Assembly (NCBI GenBank): GCA_951406725.2
Contig: OX597827.1
Location: 47,988,001-48,052,000 of the forward strand
DNA: 64,000 nucleotides
Source of the DNA: Octopus vulgaris
Taxonomy: Eukaryota
Direction of reading: 5' to 3'
Both the position numbers and the translations under genes were made by a program. This document shows positions 1,089 to 62,580 of the stretch, piece by piece. Within the stretch, counting starts at the first letter, position 1. Every line of letters begins with the position of its first letter. The notes beneath the pieces were generated by a model that had not been told where the DNA came from, did no database searches, and saw only the letters and a program-made list of their open reading frames with translations.

Positions 1089-1139
1089 TTACTGACTGAA
1101 GTAGAGATTGATCAGGTTAGACAAGCAATATCGGATAAA

Positions 1140-4100
1140 ATGAACGAAGCTGCAGCGAGAGAAGATAATACAGAGGAAATGATTATAGACCAGCCCAGGG
1201 CGGATAAAAACGAAGAGAGGATTGAAAGAGTTAGTATAAGTGATAGGCAAAGTGAAATACGCCCTGAACCAATCATAAACACTAAGACAGATGAGCATCA
1301 AATAGATAAAGAAAGTCACACAAATATTGACCCAACAGAACTACATGAGCTAAAAAATCAAATCATGATTGAATGGCTGAAAATTAAAGAAACCAGCATG
1401 GATGAGCGTGATACACTTCCTAAAATCCGCAACTCTAACCAAAACATGAAAATAATTGGTAAAATCCGGCTTGCACTTAAGGATATAATTTCAGTTAATG
1501 ATGTTGATATCACAAACCTCAACCACCTATACTATGCATCCGCGAAAATCTCAACGATCCTATGTGGTGTAAAGATTAGAAAACGGCAACAGTCCCACAA
1601 AAAGCCTTCTTGGCAAGAGCGTCTGCAACAACAAATTAAAATATTTAGATCTGACATTGAATATTTGAAAAACCTTAAGGCTCACAAGATTACCAAACCT
1701 ACAAAAACCCAAAAATTACTGAAAAAATACAATATGAAAACTATACTTGATATTGATGCCACCATAGAAACCATCAAACAAAAGGTATCTGCCAAAGCTG
1801 CCCGCATAGCGAGGTATGTAAAGCGTGTTAGATTTTTCAAGGACAACAACATGTTCAAAAATAACACCAAGAATTTTTACAGGAAGATAGGAAAAACAGC
1901 GTTTACTGCAGGGTCTGTACCATCAAAAGAAGAAGTGCAGAGATTTTGGAATAAGATAAAAAAAACACACAACGAAAAGGCCCCCTGGATTGACAGAATA
2001 TCTACAGAACTGGACCCCTTAGAAGAGCAAAAGTGGGAGGGTGTCAAGGTAGAAGATATAAGATCTGCTCTCAGGAGGTCAAGCAAATGGAAGTCTCCAG
2101 GAAAGGATAAAATTCCTAACTTCTGGCTGAATGCCTTCCCAGAGAGCCATGAACTGCTAACAGAACTGTACAATGATGTTTTGCAACACCCTAGTAGGAT
2201 GCCTCCTTGGCTAGTTAATGGGTTAACATTCCTGCTTCCAAAAAGTGAAGAAACAAATGAACCAAAAAACTATAGACCCATAACTTGCTTAACAACTATG
2301 TACAAAACACTAACATCTGTCCTGACGGAATATACCTATAGTTTTTTAACAGACAGCAGCATATTCCCTAATGAACAGAAAGGATGTAAACGTGGATCCT
2401 ACGGCTGTAAAGACCAACTACTCATCAATAAGATGATCTTAGAAGATTGTCACAAACGACACAAAAACTTATCAATAGCCTGGATAGACTATAAAAAGGC
2501 TTTTGATAGCCTACCACATAGCTGGATTAGGAAATGCCTTGAAATGTATAAGATAGCACCAACTCTGCGAAACTTCTTGACTGTAAGTATGAGATCATGG
2601 AGAACCACACTAACTCTGAACAGTGACAGTGAATCCCTAAATGCTGGTGATGTAAAAATTTCGTGTGGCATTTTCCAGGGTGACTCACTGTCACCACTCC
2701 TCTTTTGTTTATCCTTAATACCTCTCTCAAAGCTGCTCAATGACGCGCAGTACGGGTATAAAATGTTTGATAAAAATATAAATCATCTCGTTTACATGGA
2801 TGATTTAAAGCTTTTTGCAAAAAATGATCAACAACTCAAGGGCTTACTAGCGATAGTCAAACAATTCAGTGACGACATCAGAATGCAATTCGGCCTCGAT
2901 AAATGTGCAAAGGCTACCTTTATCAAAGGAAAAATGACAGAAACATCTAACGTTAACCTTGACCAACAGAATGTCATAAAAGAACTAGACCCAGCGGAGA
3001 GCTACAAGTACCTAGGGATAATTGAAGGGAACGGAATAAGGCATTCAGAGATGAAGGAAAGGATCAGGAGAGAATGCTATCGAAGAGTGAGAGCAATACT
3101 CAAGACAGAGCTGAATGCAAGAAACAGGATCGAAGCAATCAATGCATTAGCTATACCAGTCGTGACTTACAGTTTCAATATTGTTAACTGGTCAATTACT
3201 GAAATATGTCAGCTCGACAGAAAAATAAGGAAACTGTTGACAATGCATAGAATGCACCACCCTAAGGCAGATACAGAACGACTCTATCTGCAAAGAAAAG
3301 AGGGAGGCCGTGGTCTTTTGCAACTGGCAATAACAATGAAGATTGCTACAATTGGCCTAGACACCTACCTGAAAAACTCTGAGGACTGGATGCTAAAACT
3401 TGTCTCAAAACATGAAAACAAGAAAGCATCATACTCAGTCACAAAACAGGCAAAGGAATATCTAAGTGAATTCCGAATACAACCAATTTCGGAATTAGAG
3501 ATAGATATACAAGAAACAAGCACAGAAAAAGCTAGGCGCATGAAAACCCGTGCCAAAACTGCGGCCTTAGATATTCTGAATAATAAATGGCAAGAAAAAC
3601 CTCTCTATGGCAAATACCCAAAGAGAGCGAATAATGCAGATATCGACAAAGCCCTGACCCATCAATGGCTAATGGCCTCTGGCTTAAAATCTGAAACAGA
3701 GGGGTTTATCATAGCAGCTCAAGATCAATGCCTACCAACAAGAAACTACCAGGCCAACATATTAAAGATCAGAAGCAGTCCAACGTGTCGTGTATGCAAG
3801 CAACAAAATGAAACCATTGACCATGTGGTCTCCAAGTGCAGTCTTCTAGCGCCTACAGAGTATCTCAACAGGCACGATAGAGCTGCACAATATATTCACT
3901 GGGTAATCTGTAAAAACCTGGATTTGCCCCATGAAAAAAACTGGTGGGAACACAAACCACCCCCAGTGCTTGAAAATGACCACATCTCACTCCTCTGGAA
4001 CTTCACCATTCAAACTGACAGGAAGATAGATGCAAATAGGCCAGACATCATATTGAAAAACTTCAAACAAAGAACATGCCTCCTCATTGATATGACTGTC

Positions 4101-4352
4101 CCAATCGATATAAACGTATCTGTCAAGACCTATCAAAAACTGAGCAAATATAAAGATCTTGAAATAGAAATCAGCAAAATGTGGAAGCTGAAGACTAAAA
4201 CAATACCTGTTGTCATAGGTGCCCTGGGAATGATAGCAAAAGGGGCTGATAGCTACCTAACTCAGATACCAGGAAACCCAAAAATGGCAGAAGTTCAAAA
4301 GATAGTGCTCATGGGAACTGCTCATATCCTACGCAAAATACTCTCTATGTAA
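1140..4352 (+). CDS. Reverse transcriptase / restriction-like endonuclease polyprotein (1070 aa)
   Basis: KSPGKD, YRPITCL, EQKG, WIDYKKAFDS, GIFQGDSLSP, HLVYMDD, YKYLG; CCHC knuckle CRVC-x7-H-x4-C; RHD; RPDII...IDMTVP...KLSKYKDL endonuclease. Confidence 0.95.
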   Translation: MNEAAAREDNTEEMIIDQPRADKNEERIERVSISDRQSEIRPEPIINTKTDEHQIDKESHTNIDPTELHELKNQIMIEWLKIKETSMDERDTLPKIRNSNQNMKIIGKIRLALKDIISVNDVDITNLNHLYYASAKISTILCGVKIRKRQQSHKKPSWQERLQQQIKIFRSDIEYLKNLKAHKITKPTKTQKLLKKYNMKTILDIDATIETIKQKVSAKAARIARYVKRVRFFKDNNMFKNNTKNFYRKIGKTAFTAGSVPSKEEVQRFWNKIKKTHNEKAPWIDRISTELDPLEEQKWEGVKVEDIRSALRRSSKWKSPGKDKIPNFWLNAFPESHELLTELYNDVLQHPSRMPPWLVNGLTFLLPKSEETNEPKNYRPITCLTTMYKTLTSVLTEYTYSFLTDSSIFPNEQKGCKRGSYGCKDQLLINKMILEDCHKRHKNLSIAWIDYKKAFDSLPHSWIRKCLEMYKIAPTLRNFLTVSMRSWRTTLTLNSDSESLNAGDVKISCGIFQGDSLSPLLFCLSLIPLSKLLNDAQYGYKMFDKNINHLVYMDDLKLFAKNDQQLKGLLAIVKQFSDDIRMQFGLDKCAKATFIKGKMTETSNVNLDQQNVIKELDPAESYKYLGIIEGNGIRHSEMKERIRRECYRRVRAILKTELNARNRIEAINALAIPVVTYSFNIVNWSITEICQLDRKIRKLLTMHRMHHPKADTERLYLQRKEGGRGLLQLAITMKIATIGLDTYLKNSEDWMLKLVSKHENKKASYSVTKQAKEYLSEFRIQPISELEIDIQETSTEKARRMKTRAKTAALDILNNKWQEKPLYGKYPKRANNADIDKALTHQWLMASGLKSETEGFIIAAQDQCLPTRNYQANILKIRSSPTCRVCKQQNETIDHVVSKCSLLAPTEYLNRHDRAAQYIHWVICKNLDLPHEKNWWEHKPPPVLENDHISLLWNFTIQTDRKIDANRPDIILKNFKQRTCLLIDMTVPIDINVSVKTYQKLSKYKDLEIEISKMWKLKTKTIPVVIGALGMIAKGADSYLTQIPGNPKMAEVQKIVLMGTAHILRKILSM

Positions 4353-6819: not shown

Positions 6820-7585
6820 ATATATTAATAAAAAGAATTCCAACCTTGTCTGATTTTCACGTTTTATTTACAATCTTATAATGATATATTATAAGATAAT
6901 ATATTATAATTGAATAAAATAAAATGAAATAGTAGAATGTTAAATATTCATTCTGATTGAACTAGTACTTTCATGCATTGAATTCTGCAATCTTCGGGTT
7001 CATGTAGTAGTGTTGACAGTCATGCTTCACAATTTTTGACTGTAGCAAGATGAGTGATTCTGTGCTATAAATACAGCTGGGTAGGCTCCAGAGTGCTAGG
7101 TTTTGCAAACTGTATTCTGACCAATCAGTGTGTAGTATCACTCAATTACTTAAGCTGATTGGTTGGTTGAGCTGATTGGTTTAGGCATCACGCTTTGTTG
7201 GACAGGTCAAGAGTCCTGTATCTTGACCCTGGCCGAAGCAGCAATTGTTGGGTTATTTTTAGAAATGTTGTAAATATCCTTTGTCAGAGATTTTTATATT
7301 TTTATATTTCAATTGTCATCATCATCATTGTCAGCACCTTAATTATTGTTGCTAGTGGTGATGGTGGTGGCAATAGAACTTTTAACCCTAAATAAGATAA
7401 TTTTCCTGCTATCTTCGTCTTGATCACCTTTAGTATTGTTGTTGTTGTTAGTGGTCATGGTCGTAGCAGTGGAAGTAATACCTCTAAGTATTATTATTAT
7501 TGCTTATTTAGCTTGGGTTCGAATTTATCAATAAAATTCTTTTCTCTGATTTTCCTCTCGATTTCACTTGGGCTGTGTAATTTGT
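6820..7585 (-). repeat. Inverted copy of PLE 3' end / pseudo-LTR
   Basis: Reverse complement of 9217-9982; no mismatch noticed by eye. The identical 66-aa spurious ORF appears in both arms of the ORF track. Confidence 0.95.
6958..7002 (-). ncRNA. Mirror copy of the PLE hammerhead motif
   Basis: Reverse complement of 9800-9844 inside the inverted arm. Confidence 0.7.
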
Positions 7586-9305
7586 GATTTCAACACACCA
7601 CAACTCACTTACGGATAATGAAAAAGACTACATCACCAATTTTGAACCAAAACCCAGCAACTTCTACGGCTTACCAAAAATACACAAATCAAAAAACATT
7701 CAACAGGCAGTAAAAGAACAAGAAAGTGAGTACATAAAATTATTACATCCAAAAGACCTAAAACTTAGACCTATTATAGCTGGTCCAGCATGCCCTACAC
7801 ACCGTCTAAGCAATTTTATTGACATTGTTTTGAAACCACTATGTACTTACATACCAAGTTTCATCAGGGATGACATCGACTTCCTGTCCCATCTTCCCAA
7901 AACAACAGAAACAAATTCAGTTTTACTAAGTTTTGATGTGGTAAGCCTCTACACCAATATTCCACACGATTTAGGAATAAAGGCGATTAAATACTGGTTA
8001 GAAAAACATAGAGAAGTGATTCCCAGCAGATTCACAGTGCCATTTATATTAGACACAGTCAAACTTATTCTAGAAAATAACACATTCTTCTTCAATGGAA
8101 AGAATTACATCCAAATTAGAGGCACGGCGATGGGAACGAGGTTTGCTCCCGTTTACGCCAACTCTGTAATGGGATACTTAGAAGAACAACTCTACCAAGA
8201 GGTGGAGGTAAACTATGGCACTGGATTTAGAAAGTATATTGAAAAGGCATGGAAGAGATACCTAGACGACTGTTTCATAATCTGGACAGAATCTCTAAAT
8301 ACTCTGGAAGAGTTCAATATCCTCCTGAACAACCTACACCCATCTCTCAAATTTACAAAGGAGATGAGTAGTACCAAATTACCATTCCTGGATATAATGG
8401 TAATTAAAAAAGACACCACCATCACCACAGATATATACTATAAACACACAGACACACATCAATACCTAAATTTTAAGTCGTGCCATCCACCACATACAAA
8501 ACGTAACATCCCATACTGCCTAGCCAGAAGAATTTGTACTATTGTAGAAGATGCAAATATCAGGAACAAACGCCTAATAGAACTAAGAGAATTTTTGCTC
8601 AAACAAAAATACCCATCTCTACTTATAGAAAATGGCATACAGCGGGCTATAAAAATACCTATACAACAACTTAGGACAACCCAAGGAAGAGGAAAACAAG
8701 AACAAGTCATACCATTCATAGTGACACACAACCCATGTCACCAGAATATCTTCAACATTGCCAAAGCAAACCTACCAATCATTGCCCAAAGTAATGAATT
8801 AAAAGACATAATCAAGGATCGAGCTATGGTACTTAGTAAAAGACAGCCTAAAAACTTGAAAACATTACTAACAAAGGCAAAATTTGACCTCAGCAACAAA
8901 GACCAAACATTCACGGTATCTAAATGCAATGATAGCCGATGTGGCACATGCCAATTCATACATACCGGTCAATATATAAACACAAAAACCGGGAAAATAT
9001 TCACAAACGCGAATATGAACTGCAAAAGCAGAAATTTAATTTACTGCATCAAATGCCCAAATTGTGAAGAAATATATGTAGGTCAGACGGGAAACGCACT
9101 ATTAGAACGCTTACGTGTACACCGGCAACAGATTAGAGACCCAGAGGTCCGTCAGATACCTTTGAGTAACCACCTAGCAACATGTGGTCGGAAAATATAT
9201 ATAATATTTCCATTCTACAAATTACACAGCCCAAGTGAAATCGAGAGGAAAATCAGAGAAAAGAATTTTATTGATAAATTCGAACCCAAGCTAAATAAGC
9301 AATAA
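7584..9305 (+). CDS. PLE reverse transcriptase + GIY-YIG endonuclease (uninterrupted, 5'-truncated at the inversion junction)
   Basis: FYGLPKIHK, LRPII, SFDVVSLYTNIP, GTAMG, RYLDD, LPFLD; Cys linker CNDSRCGTC (Neptune-type); NLIYCIKCPNC..YVGQT..R..H..H..E..PKLN. The GTG start lies on the junction and is not a true start. Confidence 0.93.
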   Translation: MISTHHNSLTDNEKDYITNFEPKPSNFYGLPKIHKSKNIQQAVKEQESEYIKLLHPKDLKLRPIIAGPACPTHRLSNFIDIVLKPLCTYIPSFIRDDIDFLSHLPKTTETNSVLLSFDVVSLYTNIPHDLGIKAIKYWLEKHREVIPSRFTVPFILDTVKLILENNTFFFNGKNYIQIRGTAMGTRFAPVYANSVMGYLEEQLYQEVEVNYGTGFRKYIEKAWKRYLDDCFIIWTESLNTLEEFNILLNNLHPSLKFTKEMSSTKLPFLDIMVIKKDTTITTDIYYKHTDTHQYLNFKSCHPPHTKRNIPYCLARRICTIVEDANIRNKRLIELREFLLKQKYPSLLIENGIQRAIKIPIQQLRTTQGRGKQEQVIPFIVTHNPCHQNIFNIAKANLPIIAQSNELKDIIKDRAMVLSKRQPKNLKTLLTKAKFDLSNKDQTFTVSKCNDSRCGTCQFIHTGQYINTKTGKIFTNANMNCKSRNLIYCIKCPNCEEIYVGQTGNALLERLRVHRQQIRDPEVRQIPLSNHLATCGRKIYIIFPFYKLHSPSEIERKIREKNFIDKFEPKLNKQ

Positions 9306-9622
9306 TAATAATACTTAGAGGTATTACTTCCACTGCTACGACCATGACCACTAACAACAACAACAATACTAAAGGTGATCAAGACGAAGATAGCAGGAAA
9401 ATTATCTTATTTAGGGTTAAAAGTTCTATTGCCACCACCATCACCACTAGCAACAATAATTAAGGTGCTGACAATGATGATGATGACAATTGAAATATAA
9501 AAATATAAAAATCTCTGACAAAGGATATTTACAACATTTCTAAAAATAACCCAACAATTGCTGCTTCGGCCAGGGTCAAGATACAGGACTCTTGACCTGT
9601 CCAACAAAGCGTGATGCCTAAA

Positions 9623-9736
9623 CCAATCAGCTCAACCAACCAATCAGCTTAAGTAATTGAGTGATACTACACACTGATTGGTCAGAATACAGTTTGCAAA
9701 ACCTAGCACTCTGGAGCCTACCCAGCTGTATTTATA
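9623..9736 (+). promoter_or_regulatory. Putative pol II promoter in the pseudo-LTR (3 CCAAT boxes + TATA-like)
   Basis: CCAATCAG at 9623 and 9640, ATTGG at 9677, TATTTATA at 9729-9736, ~65 nt upstream of the hammerhead. Confidence 0.4.
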
Positions 9737-9799
9737 GCACAGAATCACTCATCTTGCTACAGTCAAAAATTGTGAAGCATGACTGTCAACACTACTACA

Positions 9800-9844
9800 T
9801 GAACCCGAAGATTGCAGAATTCAATGCATGAAAGTACTAGTTCA
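9800..9844 (+). ncRNA. Minimal type I hammerhead ribozyme motif in the PLE pseudo-LTR
   Basis: TGAAC-CCGAAGA-t-TGCA-gaattcaa-TGCA-t-GAAA-GTAC-TA-GTTCA: stem I TGAAC/GTTCA, stem II TGCA/TGCA, palindromic stem III AGTACT. The core has C at position 4. Confidence 0.7.
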
Positions 9845-10249
9845 ATCAGAATGAATATTTAACATTCTACTATTTCATTTTATTTTATTCAATTATAATA
9901 TATTATCTTATAATATATCATTATAAGATTGTAAATAAAACGTGAAAATCAGACAAGGTTGGAATTCTTTTTATTAATATATATATATATATATATATGC
10001 ATATGTAATTCTACAACGACTACTATTGCACACACACTTCACACTGCTTTAATGAATTGTTTAACGCACCGGTCTGTATGAATGTAGATGGCGTAATCGC
10101 ACCAATCGCCAAAAAGTCATTTTTACGATGAAATTTCGATTCTTACTCGCTGCGATTTGCACAAAATTGTTGTATATTTGTATTTGATAATTCGTATACG
10201 TATGTGTTCATGACACATCTGCCAAGTTTTCTTTCGTTAGACTGTGCTT

Positions 10250-21162: not shown

Positions 21163-21640
21163 ATAGAAAAATGTGAGCATGAAAAGTAATATTCTTAAGA
21201 TTATAAACCTGGAAAACTACAGGACAAGTTATTACGCCTGTAAAAATATAAGACTAACTATTACTTCAAGTAAAGTAAAGAATAAGAAACGTTTTACTTA
21301 AAATATTGCAGCTAAAATTAAAATTTGAATATTAGAAATTATTCTATTATATTTTACGAATAACACTATACTAATTTACTACCTTCAACACAGAAAAAAA
21401 TTACTAATTAGACAAACTTATAAATTAGCTGAACAGTTTTGTATAATTAATTTAAAAGAGGCTTAGTGTAAAGAGTGATAAATTAGAAGAGCTGGCCTTC
21501 TTTGCTGCAATATTTTAAGTAAAAAGTTTCTTACTCTTAACTTTGGTTGAATAGTTTGTCCTGTTCTTTTACAGGTGTAATAAACTTTTCCAAGTTTATT
21601 ATCTTAAGAATATTATTTTTCATGCTCGCATTTTTCCGTA
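21163..21640. mobile_element. MITE/foldback element with ~140-150-bp diverged terminal inverted repeats
   Basis: 21163-21312 (gaaaaatgtgagcatgaaaa...aaatattgcagc) is the approximate reverse complement of 21504-21640. Confidence 0.75.
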
Positions 21641-21847: not shown

Positions 21848-22415
21848 TAAGAGGAACCGAGTTAGTAAATGTTTTTATTTTCATTTCACTAAATTTATCA
21901 AGCTTCTGTGTATCTAGTACATACTTCGCCCTTTAATGTACTTATATATGAATAATATATGGCCTGTGCTAGATCACCAGCGATAATAATTAATTTTATT
22001 TTATCGCACTTTGACTTTGTTTACATATTTCTCGATAAATTTTGAGCGTTAGACAATATACCAGAAATCCCTAGTTTGTCGGGTACGTTCTGCGTCTGTG
22101 CAGTGATCTGATTAGTTAGAGAGAGCAAATTATTAGACGCACATGCTTCTAGTGAGGTGCAATTTCACAATAACAGGGCTCTTACCGATGAATTCTCCCT
22201 GAGTAAATAAATTATTTTTATTACTGAAAAGAACGAAACTGCAGTCTAAGAGGAACCGAGTTAGTAAACGTTTTTATTTTCATTTCACTAAATTTATCAA
22301 GCTTCTGTGTATCTAGTACATACTTCGCCCTTTAATGTACATATATGAATAATATATGGCCTGTGCTAGATCACCAGCGATAATAATTAATTTTATTTTA
22401 TCGCACTTTGACTTT

Positions 22416-22420
<5 letters not shown>
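21848..22420 (+). mobile_element. Retrozyme-like non-coding element: 399-nt unit + 174-nt repeat of its start, in (TA)n
   Basis: 21848-22023 is repeated at 22247-22420; a hammerhead spans the unit junction; no ORF. Confidence 0.8.
22179..22252 (+). ncRNA. Type I hammerhead ribozyme (GUC site, predicted cleavage after 22246)
   Basis: CTCTTA-CCGATGA-a-TTCT..(agtaaataaa/tttattact hairpin)..AGAA-c-GAAA-CTGCAG-TC-TAAGAG: stem I CTCTTA/TAAGAG, palindromic stem III ACTGCAGT. Confidence 0.8.
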
Positions 22421-22462
<42 letters not shown>

Positions 22463-29627: not shown

Positions 29628-29683
<56 letters not shown>

Positions 29684-29976
29684 TAATCATATATAGGGTG
29701 GCAAAAAAATTTTGTATATATATATTATATATTATATTATATATATATATATATAATATATATATATATATATTTAATCAATATAGAATTCTTTTGCCAC
29801 CAGCGGCCTAGTGGGAAAAATTAAATAGTCATAAACCATTTTTAAGTTCAACATCAACAATCAAGGAACGGCCATAATAGGCCATTCACCCACTAGAAAT
29901 AACAGCCAAAAGCTTTAACCGCAAAATAATGTCAATTCCGTAAACCAGGAGAAAATTGAAAAACATTTACCCTGTA

Positions 29977-30083
29977 ATTTCTTAGACGATGCACCGTTTC
30001 ATCTTCAGTTTAATGGAAAACTAACCTGATTAAATTAAATCAAGCCAATCTACCATAGGCCCTTAGATTCATCAGTAAGAAAT
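29977..30083 (-). ncRNA. Third, antisense copy of the hammerhead
   Basis: Reverse complement of 30264-30370 in the inverted arm (TCATCAG at 30069-30075). Confidence 0.85.
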
Positions 30084-30263
30084 AGCCAAAACCGGAACAG
30101 ATATTTTTCACGAGGCATTCTCATTGGTAATGGAATCGGCGGCTTATATTTATTTGCTGCCGATAAATTTGGCGCGAGTGCGACGATTTGAAAATTTTAG
30201 GTCAGATATTGACGAGGTAGCAATGAGAATGCCTCGTGAAAAATATCTGTTCCGGTTTTGGCT

Positions 30264-30370
30264 ATTTCTTACTGATGAATCTAAGGGCCTATGGTAGATT
30301 GGCTTGATTTAATTTAATCAGGTTAGTTTTCCATTAAACTGAAGATGAAACGGTGCATCGTCTAAGAAAT
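30264..30370 (+). ncRNA. Type I hammerhead ribozyme, canonical core, extended stem II (predicted cleavage after 30362)
   Basis: ATTTCTTA-CTGATGA-ATCT..[~19-bp G.U-rich hairpin 30291-30334]..AGAT-GAAA-CGG-TGCA-TCG-TC-TAAGAAAT: 8-bp stem I, 4-bp stem II base, 4-bp stem III, GUC triplet. Confidence 0.88.
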
Positions 30371-30755
30371 TACAGGGTAAATGTTTTTCAATTTTCTCCT
30401 GGTTTACGGAATTGACATTATTTTGCGGTTAAAGCTTTTGGCTGTTATTTCTAGTGGGTGAATGGCCTATTATGGCCGTTCCTTGATTGTTGATGTTGAA
30501 CTTAAAAATGGTTTATGACTATTTAATTTTTTCCCACTAGGCCGCTGGTGGCAAAAGAATTCTACAAAATTTTTTTGGCACCCTATATTGATTAATTATG
30601 AATTTTCTGGTTAATTCCGTAATGGAATCGGCGGCTTATATTTATTTGCTGCCGATAAATTTGGCGCGAGTGCGACGATTTGAAAATTTTAGGTCAGATA
30701 TTGACGAGGTAGCAATGAGAATGCCTCGTGAAAAATATCTGTTCCGGTTTTGGCT

Positions 30756-30862
30756 ATTTCTTACTGATGAATCTAAGGGCCTATGGTAGATTGGCTTGAT
30801 TTAATTTAATCAGGTTAGTTTTCCATTAAACTGAAGATGAAACGGTGCATCGTCTAAGAAAT
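30756..30862 (+). ncRNA. Second tandem copy of the hammerhead (predicted cleavage after 30854)
   Basis: Same sequence 492 nt downstream; CTGATGA at 30764-30770. Confidence 0.88.
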
Positions 30863-31358
30863 TACAGGGTAAATGTTTTCAATTTTCTCCTGGTTTACGG
30901 AATTAACGTTATTTTGCATCGTCTAAGAAATTACAGGGTAAATGTTTTTCAATTTTCTCCTGGTTTACGGAATTGACATTATTTTGCGGTTAAAGCTTTT
31001 GGCTGTTATTTCTAGTGGGTGAATGGCCTATTATGGCCGTTCCTTGATTGTTGATATATATATATATATATATACATGTACATACTAGCTGAATAAACAA
31101 ATACGTACACGCATACATTTATATATATGTACATACACACACGCACACACACACACACATATGAATATATAGTTATGCATTATACATGACTGTGTAAATA
31201 TGTATATAATGTATGTATGGAATATATGTTCATGTTCATGTGTGTGTGTCTATATTATGTTTATTTATATACCTCTATATGTATGTATATATATGTGTAT
31301 ATATATATATACACTCTCACATACAGACACACACATACATACATTCGCACACACACAT

Positions 31359-31392
<34 letters not shown>

Positions 31393-32488
31393 ACACCCGT
31401 AAATATATATATATACAGTTGTATATAGAATATGGAAGATGGATAGAAATGGAAGGGAAAGAAAGAGCGGAAGATAAGATTTATTTATATACCAACGGTA
31501 TGAAGGCAAATCAAACTATATTCTAAATTTTGGAAATTGTTTCACTCGAAATCAACATCATTTCCTACTGATGGTATTAGATGTACTACTATGGAAATGT
31601 CCATTTATCAATTGGTTGGACGTATGTACATTTAAGTAAATGGAAGCTATTATTCGTCCAATTTTCAGCTTTATTGTCTTTAGTACCTAATTGCGGTTTC
31701 TAATTTTAATTGAATTCAAGATGGCGTCCTTTTACATCTTCCTGTTTTCCCCTCTTTCTTTGTCTTCAGATAGTTAATTCCTCCTCTGAAAACCCCAATA
31801 TTCTTGCTGTCGTAGTTCATATAATGAACGGGAATAAAAAATATATTATTTCTCATTTGTGTACGTCTAGGCTCTGATTAATAAAATGTACAAATATATA
31901 TACTGACCAGAAATGAAACAAATTATACAATCAAACGCGTTACAGATGACAATACGTTTTACTGTATGATGTTGTTCGGTTTGTACTCTAAAACAGATAA
32001 AATGTAATTGCGAATAAACGAAAACATTTTAAACGCAGTCGAAATATATATAATACAAAGCAAAATATATCAATGCACATACAATGATCAAAACAAAATT
32101 TATTCGTACACAGTTATTGTAGGAAAATATATTTATACATTTTAAATGTCTTTCAATGCAACTTTTTCAACTTTAGACAAGAGGATGTTCGACACACTTT
32201 TTTCTGTGATTTGCATACGTATGGCTAATGTATACGCTCACACGCAGAGAGAGGGAGAGAGAGAGAGAGATGCAGGGAGAAAGAGAAAGTGAGACAGAGA
32301 GAGAGAGAGAGAAAGAGAAGCAATGAGAGAGAGACGCTATGTTCGCTACCAACACGATGAATATTTGGGGAAAGGTTTAATGGGTAGGATGATATTCATC
32401 TAATTTTAACCCTAGGTAATTTGAACGCGTTTGGAAGTTACAAAGCGGTAAGGAGAATAGGCGGTGTATATGTGAATGTAGGTGTGTA

Positions 32489-36901: not shown

Positions 36902-39900
36902 CATATTTTCAAGAAGATTTGAAAATTCAATTTGAAAGATGTTTATTCACTTCACTTGACCGGTTTCCCTTTTTAGAAAAAGATTGTCAAAAGTAAAATG
37001 TAAAGCTTTGTTGTGTTAAGTACTGGTCGTTACAAAAGTATTCAAATACATATATAATTTTTTTGATAATAATAAGAAAATGTTAAAGACAGTTTACAAG
37101 AAAGTATTTAAGAAAGTATTCAACAAAAGGTATTAGGAGTTCAATAAAAATCATATTTGTTTTGTCGTATATATATATATACACAGGAGATATATTTAAG
37201 AATTTACAAAATGTTGAAGAGGAACCGACCTGTCTTTTTGGCATTTGTTGGAGACCGCAAAATACCAAAGACATAGGTCGATTCCTCTTCAATTTTTTGT
37301 ATATTCTTAAATATATCTCCATCTATGTATACACACACACACACATATATATATATATACTACCAAACAAACATGATTTTTATTAGAGAGAGAGAGAGAG
37401 AGATCATGACAAAGACAAAAATAAATAGCATTTTATTCATTATTTATATTTGTTAACTCTCTTCAAATGTTTCTATCAAAATCCATCGAGATGAAAATCA
37501 ATGTTATATATTTGCTACGAAGTTAGATATGAAAGTAACTGTGCAGCAACAAGGTTTTAAAAATAAACATTTAAGTCTTAAATGCGAAATAGTGTCGTTC
37601 ATATTTAATTGCGGGAACAATATTCCAGAAGTGAGATGCTCGCAGCTGTAAAGCTGATTGAGCGATAGAAATTGGAGAGATAACTCATCGCTAGAAATTT
37701 AAATATACGTAGCTTTCATTACCATCTATTGTGCTATTATTCCCCAATCATCTATAAAATACATGTAAATGACAGTGATAAAACGACTTCCCTCCATTTT
37801 CACCAGCGTACGCTCATTTACTGCTAATCAAACCTTCAGAAATGTCCGTTTACTTTCTGTTTGTCTAGGTACAATTGAAGTGATATTAAATCAGAAGATA
37901 TTTTATTTGTTATTAATAATATTTATTAGTTAGGGTGGTTTAGTTGTATGTATGAGCTGAGTTAGTTTGATGCGAATCTTCACAATATTCTCCAAAACAT
38001 TACTCTCAATGAGATATCATAGTTTATGTGAAAATAATGGTATCGTAGTCGCTTTTGGCTATGGAGCCTGAGGGATTTAAATTTTATAAATATCTTATAG
38101 TGTGCCCGAACAACCTGCATATTCTCTAACACTTAGCATCTGAAGAAGACATAAATTTTATTAGACATTTGAATGGAAATATGCATTAGGAGGGAAAATT
38201 ACTTTCTCTAAACACAATACGGAATGTGATATCTTACATCGAATTAATTCATCGTTATATTCTGAAAACATTTCTGAATGTAATCATTTGGAATTTTTTC
38301 AGGTATAATTTAAGCATTTAAATTGTGCTCTTGGTCTTTTATTTTAAAACGTCGTTGAAAATTATTTACCATAAAATAAGAATGCACGCAATAATTTAAT
38401 ATCCTATTATTAAAACGGAAAATGATGGGAATTTAATTAGAGTCTGCTGCAAGGATTTTGCAGTAAACAAGAACTAGAAGGAAGGGTTTTATTTCCTACA
38501 TTTATGCTCGGCTGCGAATATGTATGAAGAGGAATCATGAGAAACGTGAGGGAAATGATAGAACAAGTATCAATGGTAACATTTAAAATTAGAATATTTA
38601 GGTAAAAATAATACGAAAGAGACATTAAATACAAGTGGTCGCTTGGATTGCATGAGGTGCCACACCTTTCACAAATTTCATAGTATTTATTTCTAAATTG
38701 GGTCGTTTTTTATTATACTTAAACGCAACCATTACAGTAAAAAATGAATTGTGTTTCTGCTAACAACCTCTGATTAATTGGATTATTGCTTGATCAGTGA
38801 TCACCTATATTATAACAGCACTATCTACGGCAAAGGACAAGGAAACATATATGAAGTAGCTCAACTTGTTAGAATCAGCAACCACATCTCCTTCGTGTCA
38901 CACCTTAGAAATATGAACGAGGCGAATTTGTCACTAGGTACACTATAACTTAAAAATATTCACAGTAATGACGGCTGGATCGCTTTTGAAAATCAGGTCT
39001 GATATACGATCTATTCAACAATAATACCAATGCAAATAACTGCTCTGGGGCTCCTTACAACAGTGACCCACTTATCATGATACATCAGCCCTTTCATGTT
39101 CTTTTAGTTTGCTATTTCCTGCAAACTTATCAAAAGAGTACCGAAGAGCTCCGAGATATAGGAAACAAATCTATTTGACAATACCTCTTATCATCTTTCA
39201 AAAGAATGAATTAAAGAAATATTTTCAGTTAAATGTGCACTGACACTGAACCTACGAAAAAGGCTTGAAGGTTGTTGCTGGAATATCTACGATCGTTAAT
39301 ATTTATTGAAAGTGACCTAGCGCTTTACAAAATTGTCAAATTAATTTTTAAAATATATTCCTTTATAGCTAAACATTTATTTTTTTTAAACTTTTGAAAT
39401 GAAGCTAAGACTTTGTTGCCCTTTTCCTACATTATCTGGTCGGAAGATTTGTACCAGTTTTAACTTTATACAATGTTATTCCTGCTATAGTTTACTGGAT
39501 TAAAGTTATAAAATGTTGGAGTTTCGAGATGTGTTAAAAGAAATGAGATCTTGAGTTCCGAAAATTTATTTTTCCTTGTTTAATTATTAATTAATTATAT
39601 TCAATATATACATACATACATACATAAATACATACATACATACGTACGTACATACATGCATATATGCATACGCACACGCAGGCACGGACACACTCACAAG
39701 CACACAATATATATATGGATAGATGCATAAATATATATTATGTATAATATATATATAATATATATATATATATTATATTATATCATATATTGCACACATA
39801 TATATATATATATGGGTAGATAGAAACATATGTGTATATCATATTATATATATGGATAGATAGACAGATACATACATATAGTATATATATATATATATAT

Positions 39901-56380: not shown

Positions 56381-57691
56381 AATCAGAGAATATAATGAAG
56401 TGGCAATGTAAGAAACTTTTTGAGTTCTAAATTGCTGATTATAGGTGACATTCACAAACTATAATGAGGTGACACGCTGACAAGCATTAAACAGATTTAA
56501 ATGATTCATTACATTTGTGAATGACAGGGCAGAGAAGCTTAGCTCTGTAGCCAGGATGAAATATCTCCGTGATAGTAGTTACAAATAATAATCTTATGAG
56601 ACTTATGACTCACTGACTATATTTTAAATTTATTGATTACACAAGAAAATCACTGAATACGGCATGGCAAGATTCGTTCTTTCGTTAGACTTCTTCAAAC
56701 GACTTGTTACATATAGAAATACGAAATCAATAAACTAGTTGTATTTAATCTTCATTAGGTAATGCTGACTTGTGCGTAATGAAACGAAATATAGTTTGAA
56801 GAGAAATGAACTTGCATTGTAAATGTACTTTACCCCCAGTGTACAAGCAATCTACCTGATAAAGATATTTTACGAAAGTAACTGCATAGATAAAACGATT
56901 GGATAGTTTGGCTAAGTTAATAGTGTTCTGCAAGCTGATATATATCATGAGGGAAATTACAACTACGTGAGTTTCATATAACAAGGAACGACAAAATCAT
57001 TTTATTGAACGCATATCTGGAACACCCTCCATTAATATCAAGTAGGTATTCACGAGATGTTACAACGAATTCAATAATTCTCGATTAAAGATCTAGTGCT
57101 TCTCAAGATAATTAAATTCAACAACGAATAAACAGGGAAGGCAAATTTATAAGCAGAGTATATTTGTGCTAAGCTGGAATAATCTTCACAGAAAGAATAA
57201 TCTACTGGCGCAATAAGTACGTAATTCAATCAAAGTTCCCGTTTGTTTTATCAAGATCTACATTTGGATGGGAAATGTTAGCTAATAACAAGTAATACTA
57301 ATACAGCCACGCATACACACGCAAGCAAGCGTCATGTACGAAGAAGCACAATGTCTCAGAGAAAATTCTATATAGTTTTAGTCACTTAGCCAATTATATA
57401 CATAGCGATACTCAGACACAATCAATAGCACTTATATTAGTGTGTGTCGAGATGCATTTGACATTGTATTCAGTTATGTCGATCTGAAAATATGAACACA
57501 TATTGAAATAGGAAAATATCTCTTGGAGATGACACACTGGTCGATCTGTATTTCACTCTCACCCTCTCTCCCACATTCTATCTTTTTCTCTTTTTCGTTT
57601 CTTCCTTTGCACAAACACCCACAAACTCGCAAAAGCACATACAAACACACAAAAACACATACACACATATGTATAACTACATATATATATA

Positions 57692-58098
57692 CTCTTCACT
57701 TGTTTCAGTTATTTGACTGCGGCCATGCTGGAGCACTGCCTTTAATCGAGCAACTCGACCCCGGCACTTATTTTTTTATTTGTAAGCCCAGTACTTATTC
57801 TATCGGTCTCTTTTGCCGAACCGCTAAGTAACGGGGACAAAAACACACCAGCATCAGTTGTCAAGCAATGCTAGGGGGAGAAACACAGACACACAAACAC
57901 ACACATGCATATATATATATATATACATATATACGACGGGCTTCTTTTCAGTTTCTGTCTACCAAATCCACTCACAAGGCTTTGGTTGGCCCGAGGCTAT
58001 AGTAGAAGATACTTGCCCAAGGTGCCACGCAGTGGGACTGAACCCAGAACCATGTGGTTGGTAAACAAGCTACTTACCACACAGCCACTCCTGCACCT
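57692..58098 (-). mobile_element. Composite A+B SINE (duplicated at 59694-60102)
   Basis: Reverse complement of 11921-12321. Confidence 0.85.
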
Positions 58099-58100
58099 AC

Positions 58101-58139
<39 letters not shown>

Positions 58140-58219
58140 GACAGACAAGTATATACATATTCAATTTACATATATATTATCTGCATTATACACACACAAA
58201 TATGTGTATGTATGCATGC

Positions 58220-58253
<34 letters not shown>

Positions 58254-58686
58254 GTATATTTTTGTGTCAGTCTACCTATCAATTAGCCTGTCCGTCAGTC
58301 AATTCTCCCAGTATGCATATATATATATCAATACAAATGCACGCACAAAGATACATACACGCGCGCACAAACACAGACTCACTGGCACACAAACACACAC
58401 ACATGTCTTAGTATACAAACTAAAGAAGTAGTACTCAATATGTGGTTCGATTTGCATGTATTTAATAGTACTTTGGTTCACCTTCGCCACATACATATTT
58501 GCAAACATACATGCAAACAAAAATACTCCATTTTTGATGTTGAAATTCCGATGAAGGAGCCATGAATCTGAGTTAAAAACCGACATTTTCACTATTAGCA
58601 AGAAATATTAAAGTATAACTGAACAATGACATATATACATGCATAATTACATACATACATACATATCTACATACACATATACATAT

Positions 58687-58733
<47 letters not shown>

Positions 58734-58862
58734 ATCCAAACATGTAAGCACAAAGGGAAATCATAACAACGCGAGGACGTGGAACAAGTATAGTATTATT
58801 GGACGCTCAGGAAAGGAAGGGAAGATGAAGGAAAAAAAATCGCCAACGGTACACACGCAGTT

Positions 58863-58894
<32 letters not shown>

Positions 58895-59139
58895 GCATAT
58901 ATATACGTACGTACGTACGTACATACACACAAACACATAGGAGTTAGGTAAAGGCATTAGCTAACAATTGTTTCTGCTATAAGATGTTGCATGAGGTAGC
59001 AGAGGTCGGAGTTCTGGCGTCGCATTGTGAACGCAGCTGCAACGTAATGATAGCGGATACGTAAAAACCTAATAAACAATGTCTCATAAATAATTGCATT
59101 CGGTATCATTACATGCACTATAGCATGCACTGTAGATTC

Positions 59140-59296
59140 AGAAGTGGCTGTGTGGTAAGCTGTCTTGCTTAGCAATCACATGCTTCCGGGTTCCGTCCCA
59201 CTGCGTGTCACCTTAAGCAAGTGTATTCCACTAAATCTTCGGGACGACCAAAGCCTTGTGAGTGGATTTGTAGACGATGACTTCAAGAAGCCTGTC

Positions 59297-59297
<1 letters not shown>
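59140..59297 (+). mobile_element. Family A SINE head (duplicated at 61120-61277)
   Basis: gtggctgtgtggtaag...ccgggttccgtccc...gtggatttgtagacg. Confidence 0.8.
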
Positions 59298-59340
<43 letters not shown>

Positions 59341-60104
59341 TAGCATTAAAGACCCGTCGTTGCCGGGTCATAGTGCTAGTGCATGTATATATGTGTATAT
59401 ATATGTGTACATATTACATGTACATCTATATATATACATCTACACATAAAATACAAAATACAAAGTTTTATCTTGATATCGTTAGTGATAACAATACTCA
59501 AAATATATAACAGACTGGAATTGTTAGCCCGTCTCTTGTAATTTCGATCAATTGTATCTTGTCCTCCCTCTTGTATAGAAGTGTGGTACCATCCGACGGC
59601 TGCAGCGAAATTCATATTTGGACACACAGCGAAATTCATTTTTGGACACACAAAAACACATACACACATATGTATAACTACATATATATATATACTCTTC
59701 ACTTGTTTCAGTTATTTGACTGCGGCCATGCTGGAGCACTGCCTTTAATCGAGCAACTCGACCCCGGCACTTATTTGTTTATTTGTAAGCCCAGTACTTA
59801 TTCTATCGGTCTCTTTTGCCGAACCGCTAAGTAACGGGGACAAAAACACACCAGCATCAGTTGTCAAGCAATGCTAGGGGGACAAACACAGACACACAAA
59901 CACACACATGCATATATATATATATATATACATATATACGACGGGCTTCTTTTCAGTTTCTGTCTACCAAATCCACTCACAAGGCTTTGGTTGGCCCGAG
60001 GCTATAGTAGAAGACACTTGCCCAAGGTGCCACGCAGTGGGACTGAACCCAAACCATGTGGTTGGTAAACAAGCTACTTACCACACAGCCACTCCTGCAC
60101 CTAC

Positions 60105-60143
<39 letters not shown>

Positions 60144-60221
60144 CAGACAAGTATATACATATTCAATTTACATATATATTATCTGCATTATACACACACA
60201 AATATGTGTATGTATGCATGC

Positions 60222-60257
<36 letters not shown>

Positions 60258-60842
60258 GTATATTTTTGTGTCAGTCTACCTATCAATTAGCCTGTCCGTC
60301 AGTCAATTCTCCCAGTATGCATATATATATATCAACACAAATGCACGCACAAAGATACATACACGCGCGCACAAACACAGACTCACTGGCACACAAACAC
60401 ACACACATGTCTTAGTATACAAACTAAAGAAGTAGTACTCAATATGTGGTTCGATTTGCATGTATTTAATAGTACTTTGGTTCACCTTCGCCACATACAT
60501 ATTTGCAAACATACATGCAAACAAAAATACTCCATTTTTGATGTTGAAATTCCGATGAAGGAGCTATGAATCTGAGTTAAAAACCGACATTTTCACTATT
60601 AGCAAGAAATATTAAAGTATAACTGAACAATGACATATATACATGCATAATTACATACATACATACATATCTACATACACATATACATATATATATATAT
60701 ATATATATAGTTAATCCAAACATGTAAGCACAAAGAGAAATCATAACAACGCGAGGACGTGGAACAAGTATAGTATTATTGGACGCTCAGGAAAGGAAGG
60801 GAAGATGAAGGAAAAAAAATCGCCAACGGTACACACGCAGTT

Positions 60843-60874
<32 letters not shown>

Positions 60875-61297
60875 GCATATATATACGTACGTACGTACGT
60901 ACATACACACAAACACATAGGAGTTAGGTAAAGGCATTAGCTAACAATTGTTTCTGCTATAAGATGTTGCATGAGGTAGCAGAGGTCGGAGTTCTGGCGT
61001 CGCATTGTGAACGCAGCTGCAACGTAATGATAGCGGATACGTAAAAACCTAATAAACAATGTCTCATAAATAATTGCATTCGGTATCATTACATGCACTA
61101 TAGCATGCACTGTAGATTCAGAAGTGGCTGTGTGGTAAGCTGTCTTGCTTAGCAATCACATGCTTCCGGGTTCCGTCCCACTGCGTGTCACCTTAAGCAA
61201 GTGTATTCCACTAAATCTTCGGGACGACCAAAGCCTTGTGAGTGGATTTGTAGACGATGACTTCAAGAAGCCTGTCGTATATATATATATATATATA

Positions 61298-62580
61298 CTA
61301 GCATTAAAGACCCGTCGTTGCCGGGTCATAGTGCTAGTGCATGTATATATGTGTATATATATGTGTACATATTACATGTACATCTATATATATACATCTA
61401 CACATAAAATACAAAATACAAAGTTTTATCTTGATATCGTTAGTGATAACAATACTCAAAATATATAACAGACTGGAATTGTTAGCCCGTCTCTTGTAAT
61501 TTCGATCAATTGTATCTTGTCCTCCCTCTTGTATAGAAGTGTGGTACCATCCGACGGCTGCAGCGAAATTCATTTTTGGACTTTCTTCTATCGAAGACAT
61601 TTTAACAAAAATACTTCTGTGTAAACGGTGAAAATATTGCCAATTTCCCAAAACAGGGACATAATTCAATTTCTAAACAATAACCAAAGCTCCTTCTCCC
61701 AAAGTGGGAGGGTAACAGTTTACAATTATTTAACAAATGCAACACACAACGCTTCCCTTACGAGGAACCAACAAACGTGATAACAATAGTTAAACAGAAA
61801 TAATAATAACAACAAACCTTACGATAAACCAAAAAGCAGTACTCTGTTGAAGCTATAGGCCTTTATGGATCAGAAATAAACTAACAGCGGTACTCAGTAG
61901 AATGCTTAATGCTAGCTAATTAGCAAATAATCTAATGTAAAAGCAGTGCACACCTCCATCTGGACTATTCCATTTCTACACTTAAATTTTATTTTTTATT
62001 TATTCCCATTCATGTGAAACCACTGATTCAAGTTCAAGTCATTGATGCAATTTTATACCAATTGCTATATTTTTACTTTTGTTATGTTACGATAATATTA
62101 TACTTTAGTTTGATTTTAATTATTACTTACTACATATAATTCAATTGTTATTATTATTTTTATTATTAAAGTGAAAGTATCTGACATAAAATAGAGAAAT
62201 GTTTTTGTTTCACTTTTAACACGTAATACTGAAATAGTGGAGAAGATATGATAATGCTATGGGCTTGCTCTAGGCAAGAAGTTGAACATTTTGCTTGCCC
62301 ATGAAACTACATGGACCCTAAGTAAGGCATGTGTAAAGTTTGAATGAAATTGGTTGTGTAGTTCTCAAGTTTTAGGGAATCGTAGTGGAGAAGATATGAT
62401 ATTGCTGTGGAATCGCCCTAGGCAAAAAGTTAAAATTTTTTTGCCGATGACACTCCCCGGACCCTAAGTAAGGCATGTGTAAAATTTGAATGAAATGGGT
62501 TGTGTAGTTCTCAAATTTTGGGGAAACACACAGACAGACAGACAGACACACACACATTCTCAGTTTTATATATATAAAGA
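61298..62580 (-). mobile_element. Non-autonomous Helitron (~1.28 kb)
   Basis: Minus strand begins A|TCTTTATATATATAAAA and ends with the hairpin acccggcaacgacgggt + 8 nt + CTAG|T; no TSD. Internal ~145-bp tandem repeat at 62233-62522. The 3' end is also duplicated at 59340-59646. Confidence 0.82.

What the first reader, a model, noticed from the sequence alone, without database searches (positions are those of the whole stretch)
30127..31054. 492-nt tandem unit with two canonical hammerheads: predicted self-excising/circular RNA with an unusually long stem II
Seen: two identical hammerheads 492 nt apart (GUC sites after 30362 and 30854) with a perfect CUGAUGA/GAAA core, an 8-bp stem I and stem III ACGG-UGCA-UCGU. 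Stem II (AUCU/AGAU) is capped not by a short loop but by a ~60-nt insert containing a ~19-bp hairpin with many G.U pairs (30291-30334), which pairs well only on this strand. No ORF. Inference: transcription would release a 492-nt monomer (30363-30854) with ends suitable for ligation into a circRNA. The long stem II could hide it from standard motif searches.
Basis: partly seen in the sequence, partly recalled or inferred. Interest (0 to 1): 0.92.

Follow-up and report, generated by a model that had tools for sequence, protein, structure and literature searches.

The report
Self-cutting RNA repeat inserted two-armed
This is a protein-free jumping repeat with a self-cutting RNA that has an unusually long side arm; its copies sit as two back-to-back arrays with two fixed ends, pointing to copying by Penelope-type retrotransposon enzymes, possibly around an RNA circle.

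Summary
In detail: two identical type I hammerheads 492 nt apart, a 68-nt stem II, no ORF, no Rfam match. The insertion is 29679-31055, inside (TA)n. It belongs to a young dispersed family (2,679 exact motif matches, roughly 900-1,100 loci) with a 91% and a 74% relative. Copies are two divergent tandem arrays. In 35 of 35 two-ended loci one arm ends near unit position 132 and the other near 237: the inverted-copy-plus-tail signature of Penelope-like elements (PLEs), with a 105-nt tail instead of 30-40. Coding PLEs in this genome share layout and target, but none of three sampled is homologous, and no copy examined is joined to an ORF. The long stem II covaries across families; stem III is self-complementary and favours a double hammerhead. 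Best reading: a non-autonomous, PLE-mobilised animal retrozyme primed at both target ends. A circular template is favoured, not shown; cleavage and expression are untested. Retrozymes, their PLE link and the tail are known; the long stem II and strict one-short/one-long rule were not found in eight literature searches.

The parts
29679..31055 (.). Whole insertion: two divergent arms (3' ends pointing outward) between (TA)n tracts
29628..29678 (.). Left (TA)n target tract
29679..29716 (-). Outermost piece of left arm, unit positions 201-237: the 'long' end (inferred RT start site 2)
29717..29783 (-). TA-rich filler plus a second short copy of the 237 end before a jump to position 202 (inferred aborted and restarted priming)
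   Evidence: sequence read; interpretation is inference
29784..30129 (-). Left arm body, unit positions 348-492 then 1-202
29977..30083 (-).
30127..30129 (.). Inversion junction, 3-nt overlap between the two 5'-truncated arms (unit positions 348 and 257)
30127..31055 (+).
30264..30370 (+). Hammerhead 1, type I; core 30272-30278 and 30347-30350; predicted cut after 30362
30279..30346 (+). Long stem II (68 nt): 4 bp, internal loops, 18-bp hairpin 30291-30334 capped by invariant UAAUUU
30350..30361 (+). Self-complementary stem III (12 nt), predicted to pair between two ribozymes
30363..30854 (+). Predicted 492-nt monomer (cut site to cut site); defines unit positions 1-492
30756..30862 (+). Hammerhead 2; predicted cut after 30854
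30855..30917 (+). Extra copy of unit positions 1-64 carrying another family member's variants, followed by a jump at a TGC microhomology (inferred template switch)
30924..31055 (+). Terminal piece, unit positions 1-132: the 'short' end (inferred RT start site 1), running into (TA)n

Best explanation
A non-autonomous animal (non-LTR) retrozyme mobilised in trans by a Penelope-like element with RT and GIY-YIG endonuclease. SHOWN: dispersed young family; conserved, covarying type I hammerhead with 65-68-nt stem II; insertions in (TA)n as two divergent tandem arrays with one end at unit position ~132 and one at ~237 and variable, often microhomology-joined 5' ends; both arms of a locus carry the same haplotype. 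INFERRED: tandem transcripts are cut mainly as double hammerheads through the self-complementary stem III and ligated to a ~492-nt circle (by analogy with mussel, coral and axolotl retrozymes); a PLE protein, probably a dimer, nicks both strands of a (TA)n site, and each DNA 3' end primes reverse transcription at its own fixed internal site, 105 nt apart; each RT runs through the cut site for 0 to ~11 rounds; the two cDNA ends are then joined. About 0.8 for PLE-driven two-end priming; about 0.55 that the usual template is a monomeric circle rather than an uncut linear multimer; which PLE family does it is unknown.
For: Family: 293 matches in the 40 places scored of 1,211 candidates; 2,679 exact matches of a 24-nt hammerhead motif, control 0; its first 100 hits form 33 loci, 15 with both strands, 15 of 15 divergent. 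Ends: 35 of 35 two-ended loci (of 40; 5 one-armed) have one short and one long end (3e-11 if each end chose independently at 50:50); 75 of 75 arm ends run into (TA)n. Same rule in 11 of 12 two-ended loci of family B (the twelfth a composite end) and 6 of 6 of family C, and 4 of 4 two-ended among 8 single-hammerhead loci. One non-microsatellite site shows a ~12-bp TSD (L225). Coding PLE in the same window (RT + GIY-YIG) has the same layout, target and a ~30-nt tail on one arm. Inverted copy, one-sided tail and microsatellite bias are PLE marks (PMC8557442; PMC3846280); the tail lies between two RT start sites and both strands are cut and extended in vitro (PMC11167929). Ribozyme under selection: 95.2% of cells paired, 6 pairs with two-sided change (3 in outer stem II, 1 in the inner hairpin, 2 in stem I), 0/500 shuffles for pairing and covariation score, slid controls 29-49%; family B differs at N7, H17 and swaps palindrome UGCA for UAUA; 195 of 208 copies intact. 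Free co-fold of two copies is the double hammerhead, -71.1 vs -60.4 kcal/mol. One-unit template: divergence 0.47% within arm, 0.43% between arms, 1.05% between loci; 9 variants private to one locus are fixed in all its units, 7 on both arms; 205 of 210 crossings of the cut site are intact and 5' ends do not pile up there; the U-tract at 207-215 changes length unit by unit.
Against: No cleavage, expression or circle shown. No partner PLE identified: three coding families sampled have no DNA homology to the unit. 23 locus-variant pairs are shared by only some units, some with period 2 or 4 (L033, L045, L059, L062) or across arms, which a single monomeric circle does not give. Pairs-with-two-sided-change was reached by 78/500 shuffles, and the 16 rows represent only three related families. 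Families A/B have A10.1-U11.1 and the commonest C type an A.A mismatch instead of the usual G-C. In a whole-transcript fold of the right arm the state with two single hammerheads lies 14 kcal/mol above the minimum. Only 1 of 9 predicted Xenopus retrozyme dimers cleaved in vitro (10.64898/2026.07.22.740005); hammerhead cleavage was dispensable for PLE insertion in vitro, and start-site use did not differ between strands. The 40 family-A loci were chosen for similarity to a full unit, so they favour young, long copies.
Confidence: 0.78

Rival explanations
1. Same PLE-driven two-end priming, but on uncut linear multimeric transcripts (or di-/tetrameric circles), with arrays regrown by template jumping or unequal exchange after insertion; the monomeric circle is not the intermediate.
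For: 23 partial variants, period-2 and period-4 patterns, a repeated four-unit block in L062, subsets shared across arms; a piece from another haplotype in the window copy; hammerhead mutants did not affect insertion in vitro for an anole PLE; lone stem III barely forms.
Against: 35 variants fixed across all units of a locus, 9 of them private and 7 of those on both inverted arms, need a one-unit bottleneck; the ribozyme is kept intact and covaries across families 74% alike.
Confidence: 0.3
2. The inverted arm is made by fold-back self-priming of the first cDNA (or by DNA-level inverted duplication), not by a second target-primed event.
For: Self-priming was proposed for PLE inverted repeats with palindromic junctions (PMC3846280); 22 of 35 junctions overlap by 2 nt or more; 2 of 35 are palindromic (L039, L055).
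Against: A fold-back copy should end at the same site as its template arm and be the shorter one. The ends are never the same (35 of 35), either arm can be longer (22 vs 13), and 12 of 35 loci have a full unit or more in both arms.
Confidence: 0.1
3. The unit is the pseudo-LTR of an unsampled coding PLE, and the arrays are truncated by-products rather than a self-propagating family.
For: Retrozymes are homologous to pLTRs in Xenopus (24 of 57 families matched TEs); 14,441 RT-like candidate places exist and only 150 were scored; descent from a pLTR is likely.
Against: Same-strand spacing among the first 100 hits is only 487-495, 980 or 995 nt; none of 39 A, 15 B, 13 C and 8 single-hammerhead loci has a unit joined to an ORF; nearby PLE fragments are separated by (TA)n or flank; arrays of up to 10 full units carry locus-specific haplotypes.
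Confidence: 0.07
4. Ordinary satellite DNA or an assembly artefact (chimeric inverted reads).
For: Tandem units; inverted joins can be library artefacts (general knowledge).
Against: Dispersed over many contigs in short arrays; fixed ends, a TSD and three families with the same rule; another tandem hammerhead family in the same assembly shows both strands in 0 of 78 loci vs 15 of 33 (p=8e-10; that family is older, so detection is lower); a contig of run X4 also holds both orientations.
Confidence: 0.03

Closest known systems
Animal non-LTR retrozymes (Cervera & de la Pena 2020, PMC7229834; coral, mussel, axolotl)
   Same: Non-coding tandem units, one type I hammerhead each, low GC, weak palindromic helix III working as a dimer; circle and PLE/LINE mobilisation proposed there.
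   Different: Unit 492 nt (170-400 nt reported for invertebrates); helix II 68 nt instead of ~4 bp plus loop; 'inverted' does not occur in that paper's main text; circles were shown there, not here.
Retrozymes as non-autonomous PLE derivatives (Li, Clavereau, Pollet 2026, 10.64898/2026.07.22.740005)
   Same: Same conclusion on the PLE link; consensus lengths 51-972 bp cover this unit.
   Different: Their evidence is co-occurrence and pLTR homology, mainly in vertebrates; here no pLTR homology was found, and the link rests on insertion anatomy (inverted arm, tail, microsatellite target).
EN+ Penelope-like elements, Neptune-type (PMC8557442, PMC3846280, PMC11167929)
   Same: Inverted 5'-truncated copy, tail on one end, microsatellite target, two internal RT start sites, hammerhead upstream of the 3' ends.
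   Different: No ORF; tail ~105 nt (85-100 in family C) against 30-40; tail described as optional or often on one end, here strictly one of each; many-unit arrays on both arms.
PLE minimal hammerheads (PMC4209133)
   Same: Palindromic helix III, dimer cleavage, larger-than-usual helix II, pairs on opposite strands 100-700 bp apart noted in Schistosoma.
   Different: Helix II there is 6-8 bp with G10.1-C11.1; here 22+ bp with internal loops and an A-U closing pair.
Non-autonomous Chlamys elements such as MRC1 (PMC8557442)
   Same: Non-coding PLE passengers with multicopy head-to-tail insertions.
   Different: They resemble their autonomous partner at the 3' end, and Chlamys elements mostly lack hammerheads.

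Membership tests
Animal non-LTR retrozyme | Type I hammerhead in each tandem unit | tested here: met
   195 of 208 copies with core, stem III and 3' stem I intact
Animal non-LTR retrozyme | Short tandem units, dimers to multimers, dispersed | tested here: met
   spacing 487-495 nt; 1-10 full units per locus; slightly above the 150-450 bp of PMC7229834, within 51-972 bp of Li et al.
Animal non-LTR retrozyme | No protein-coding frame | tested here: met
   longest Met-ORF 63 aa
Animal non-LTR retrozyme | Low GC (<45-50%) | tested here: met
   0.33 for window 30001-32000, which includes flank; unit alone not computed
Animal non-LTR retrozyme | TSD longer than 4 bp when present | tested here: inconclusive
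   one ~12-bp TSD (L225); (TA)n flanks hide the rest
Animal non-LTR retrozyme | Self-cleavage of transcripts | not testable with these tools
   only folding and covariation
Animal non-LTR retrozyme | Accumulates as circular RNA | not testable with these tools
   only assembled contigs were available, which cannot tell a circle from a tandem
Animal non-LTR retrozyme | No LTR, PBS or PPT | not tested
   no LTR layout seen; PBS/PPT not searched; no tRNA gene in window
EN+ PLE (autonomous) | ORF with RT and GIY-YIG endonuclease | tested here: not met
   no unit joined to such an ORF
PLE-mobilised insertion | Inverted 5'-truncated copy at the 5' end | tested here: met
   35 of 40 loci; 15 of 15 two-strand loci divergent
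PLE-mobilised insertion | 3' tail on one end (30-40 bp) | tested here: met
   present in 35 of 35 two-ended loci but ~105 nt long
PLE-mobilised insertion | Microsatellite/AT-rich target | tested here: met
   75 of 75 arm ends in (TA)n
PLE-mobilised insertion | Sequence similarity to the pLTR of a coding PLE | tested here: inconclusive
   none with three coding families; most PLE families unsampled
Canonical type I hammerhead | Core CUGANGA / GAAA / NUH with three helices | tested here: met
Canonical type I hammerhead | Helix II about 4 bp with short loop and G10.1-C11.1 | tested here: not met
   68-nt helix II; pair 10.1-11.1 is AU in 8, GC in 2, unpaired in 6 of 16 rows
Canonical type I hammerhead | Tertiary contact between helix I and loop II | not testable with these tools
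   RNAalifold pairs conserved GGGU after stem I with RCCU in the stem II internal loop, a lead only

The most novel reading that the evidence does not exclude
Each locus is a direct genomic record of bidirectional rolling-circle retrotransposition: one PLE dimer holds one circular retrozyme RNA, both nicked target strands prime at two fixed, strand-assigned sites 105 nt apart, and both RTs roll round the circle. The PLE 'tail' is then an obligatory consequence of dimer asymmetry, and long-stem-II hammerheads with self-complementary stem III are a lineage-wide class that standard screens miss (four unrelated or distantly related families seen in this genome).
Probability: 0.4. Interest if true: 0.82.

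Novelty: new variant of a known kind. Interest (0 to 1): 0.62.

Why it matters
How animal retrozymes get back into genomes, and why PLE insertions have an inverted copy and a one-sided tail, are both stated as open in the papers read. This family carries the PLE insertion signature on a protein-free 492-nt unit in about a thousand young loci, next to an apparently active coding PLE. That makes trans-mobilisation, circle use and strand-specific start sites testable with an existing in vitro PLE assay. It also shows that hammerheads with 40-70-nt stem II escape Rfam, so retrozyme counts in such genomes are probably too low.

Tried and rejected
Expression: no RNA holder listed (runs only guessed as RNA). 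Contigs of X1, X4 (guessed RNA, organism A) and X16, X17 (labelled organisms B, C) cover 29 of 29 bins and join 30618 to 30127, which fits tandem DNA as well as a circle; not used for or against expression. Partner search: the 775-aa PLE family of the window, a 781-aa family and a third with ~4.0-kb period show no DNA homology to units A/B/C. I first noted that the window's PLE lacks a hammerhead; a scan allowing a CCGA core found one. My idea that the third PLE family bears a long-stem-II hammerhead failed: only GAAA plus a palindrome, no 5' core. A 306-nt probe between two hammerheads 3.5 kb apart (C9) showed no RT; the rest was not seen. One search used a mis-registered structure (70% paired) and is discarded; one search is the corrected count. 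The 'two singles' co-fold failed (invalid energy); monomer energy x2 was used instead. No RNA polymerase III B box and no convincing A box; no tRNA; promoter unknown. An alternative short stem II (AUCUA/UAGAU) has probability ~0. Rows left out: segments under 60 nt, homopolymer-adjacent columns and loci with fewer than 3 covering units; the family-B copy in L031 in the family-A tallies. Three look-ups of earlier findings returned nothing.

Full report
OBSERVATION. The strict motif is absent from 20 shuffled windows. Rfam finds nothing at gathering score and no hammerhead family at E<=10. Stems I and II are favoured (pair probabilities 0.7-0.99 locally; 0.44-0.76 in the folded circle), but stem III is not (0.01), and the active fold costs 3.3 kcal/mol. 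The unit folds well as a circle on the + strand (z -6.0; - strand -3.05; 40 shuffles each). There is no ORF over 63 aa.

A 317-nt inverted repeat is the left arm of the same insertion. Numbering the unit from the cut site (30363 = 1), the locus reads: (TA)n, left arm on - ending at 237, a 3-nt overlap, right arm on + ending at 132, (TA)n. The left arm has its own hammerhead. Two irregularities look like RT restarts (inference): a doubled 237 end with TA filler at 29679-29783, and a re-copied stretch 30855-30917 with another copy's variants.

FAMILY. G000 (2.8 Gb, 227 contigs) gives 293 matches at the 40 places scored of 1,211 candidates. A 24-nt motif of families A and B matches exactly 2,679 times, control 0; its first 100 hits form 33 loci, which scales to about 900-1,100 loci. 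Family B is ~91% alike, family C (474 nt) ~74% alike, with 308 matches of its motif. Contigs from runs labelled as two other organisms cover the whole unit.

INSERTION ANATOMY. I read 39 further family-A loci plus the window. 35 of 40 have two divergent arms, and all 35 have one end at 128-137 and one at 232-243. All 75 arm ends run into (TA)n. The 70 junction ends are spread from 1 to 447 with no pile-up at the cut site: the three scored as 1 continue 12-14 nt across it. 22 of 35 junctions overlap by 2 nt or more, 6 are blunt or 1 nt, 7 have inserts. Either arm can be the longer, 22 vs 13. The rule holds in 11 of 12 two-ended B loci (L124 has a composite end), 6 of 6 C loci and 4 of 4 two-ended single-hammerhead loci. 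In the unselected list 15 of 15 two-strand loci are divergent. L225, in a non-microsatellite site, shows a ~12-bp TSD. The 40-locus set is biased to young, long copies.

LINK TO PLEs. The window holds a PLE at 6820-9982 (RT and GIY-YIG; a C-x4-C-x2-C linker, which PMC8557442 ties to Neptune elements). It has two divergent arms in (TA)n, a ~30-nt tail on one arm and a short hammerhead with palindromic stem III. All 150 scored matches of its RT piece are identical, many in 775-aa open frames; three further two-ended loci show tail on one arm only (L071, L095, L109). Inverted copy, one-sided 30-40-bp tail and microsatellite bias are described for PLEs (PMC8557442, passages; PMC3846280, passages; PMC8969392, passages). 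For an anole PLE the tail is the distance between two internal RT start sites and both strands are cut and extended (PMC11167929, parts 1-2 of 4). So the two ends here are read as RT start sites, one per target strand. None of three coding families sampled shares DNA with the unit, and no copy examined is joined to an ORF: the partner is not identified.

RIBOZYME. On 16 hand-picked distinct hammerheads from A, B and C (16 of 55 distinct sequences) the structure is 95.2% paired, with six pairs changed on both sides, including three of four outer stem II pairs and one in the long hairpin; 0/500 shuffles reach the pairing or the covariation score, 78/500 reach six pairs. The rows are related, so this counts few events. 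B differs from A at the free positions N7 and H17 and replaces one palindromic loop by another; C has a perfect 12-nt palindrome. Stem III is worth -0.1 to -1.0 kcal/mol as a hairpin and -13.6 to -18.7 as an intermolecular duplex, and two copies co-fold freely into the double hammerhead. This is the known dimer mechanism (PMC4209133, parts 1-2 of 4). The rest of the unit also has a conserved fold: 104 consensus pairs, 9 with two-sided change, 10 rows.

CIRCLE OR LINEAR TEMPLATE. Among 144 full units, divergence is 0.47% within an arm, 0.43% between arms of a locus and 1.05% between loci. Of locus-variant pairs covered by three or more units, 35 are fixed, 23 partial, 111 single; 9 fixed ones occur in one sampled locus only, 7 of them on both arms. 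RT crosses the cut site cleanly in 205 of 210 cases, and a U-tract varies from unit to unit, 6-26 nt (assembly error could contribute). This favours repeated copying of one unit. Against a pure monomer circle are period-2 and period-4 patterns and subsets shared across arms, which need multimeric templates, several RNAs or later exchange.

WHAT IS KNOWN. Animal retrozymes as circRNAs and candidate PLE passengers: PMC7229834 (passages and parts 3-4 of 6). Phylogenetic PLE link in vertebrates, with 1 of 9 dimers cleaving: 10.64898/2026.07.22.740005 (parts 1-3 of 5). Circle-templated more-than-unit RT was proposed in 2014. 'Long' helix II elsewhere means 6-8 bp (PMC13725137, passages); split half-cores 35-50 nt apart were noted in Naiads. 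MRC1: 10.1101/2022.06.16.496473, passages. Eight searches found no report of a 60-70-nt stem II retrozyme, of two-armed retrozyme insertions or of a strict one-of-each end rule; other listed papers were seen as listings only, no supplements were read, and the library lacks most subscription papers, so absence is weak. Hammerhead numbering and double-hammerhead background beyond these papers are recalled.

VERDICT. Real, and a new variant of a known kind: a PLE-mobilised non-LTR retrozyme with an atypical ribozyme and unusually legible insertion anatomy. It works like a PLE passenger (0.8); it meets every retrozyme feature that could be tested, while cleavage and circles remain untested. Interest 0.62.

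Noticed in passing
window 21848-22425 (+): A second hammerhead element: 399-nt unit, CCGAUGA core at 22185, 43-nt stem II, palindromic stem III, 5' end at about the cut site, 3' end in (TA)n. 118 motif matches in G000, tandem at ~397-399 nt, never on both strands in 78 loci; shares a ~20-nt motif after the cut site with families A-C. Local fold is weak (z +0.5).
   Followed up: partly
window 6820-9982: Neptune-type PLE, 5'-truncated, 766-nt inverted arms 100% identical, hammerheads at 9805 (+) and 6997 (-); family apparently active, tandem period ~4.27 kb, with a ~1.2-kb stretch that looks coding upstream of the 775-aa frame.
   Followed up: partly
L178:90-575; L200-L224: Family D: unrelated element with a 59-nt stem II hammerhead, palindromic stem III, two 3' ends, (TA)n target, some divergent pairs; at least 850 nt long; 1,906 candidate places; no ORF link found.
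   Followed up: partly
L177:45, L173 (-), L106 (-): Further hammerhead-like motifs with 54-, 39- and 46-nt stem II; single sightings from a relaxed scan that gave 4 hits in 20 shuffled windows.
   Followed up: no
L233 (G000:C1:99284450-99288950): PLE family with ~4.0-kb period, an upstream ~495-aa frame and only a half hammerhead (GAAA plus palindrome); 1,194 motif matches.
   Followed up: partly
L031/L110, L231, L172, L058: Retrozyme copies inserted into the (TA)n end of other retrozyme or PLE copies, as expected for a shared target.
   Followed up: partly
window 1089-4352 (+): Open 1,087-aa frame with RT and zf-RVT domains, LINE-type.
   Followed up: no
window 57645-61581: Tandem duplication of ~2 kb, 97% identical.
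   Followed up: no
window 21166-21636 and 37143-37384; 62235-62525: Old inverted repeats (79% and 71%) and a 146-nt two-copy repeat.
   Followed up: no
L046, unit positions 207-215: U-tract of 10-26 nt varying between adjacent units of one locus.
   Followed up: partly
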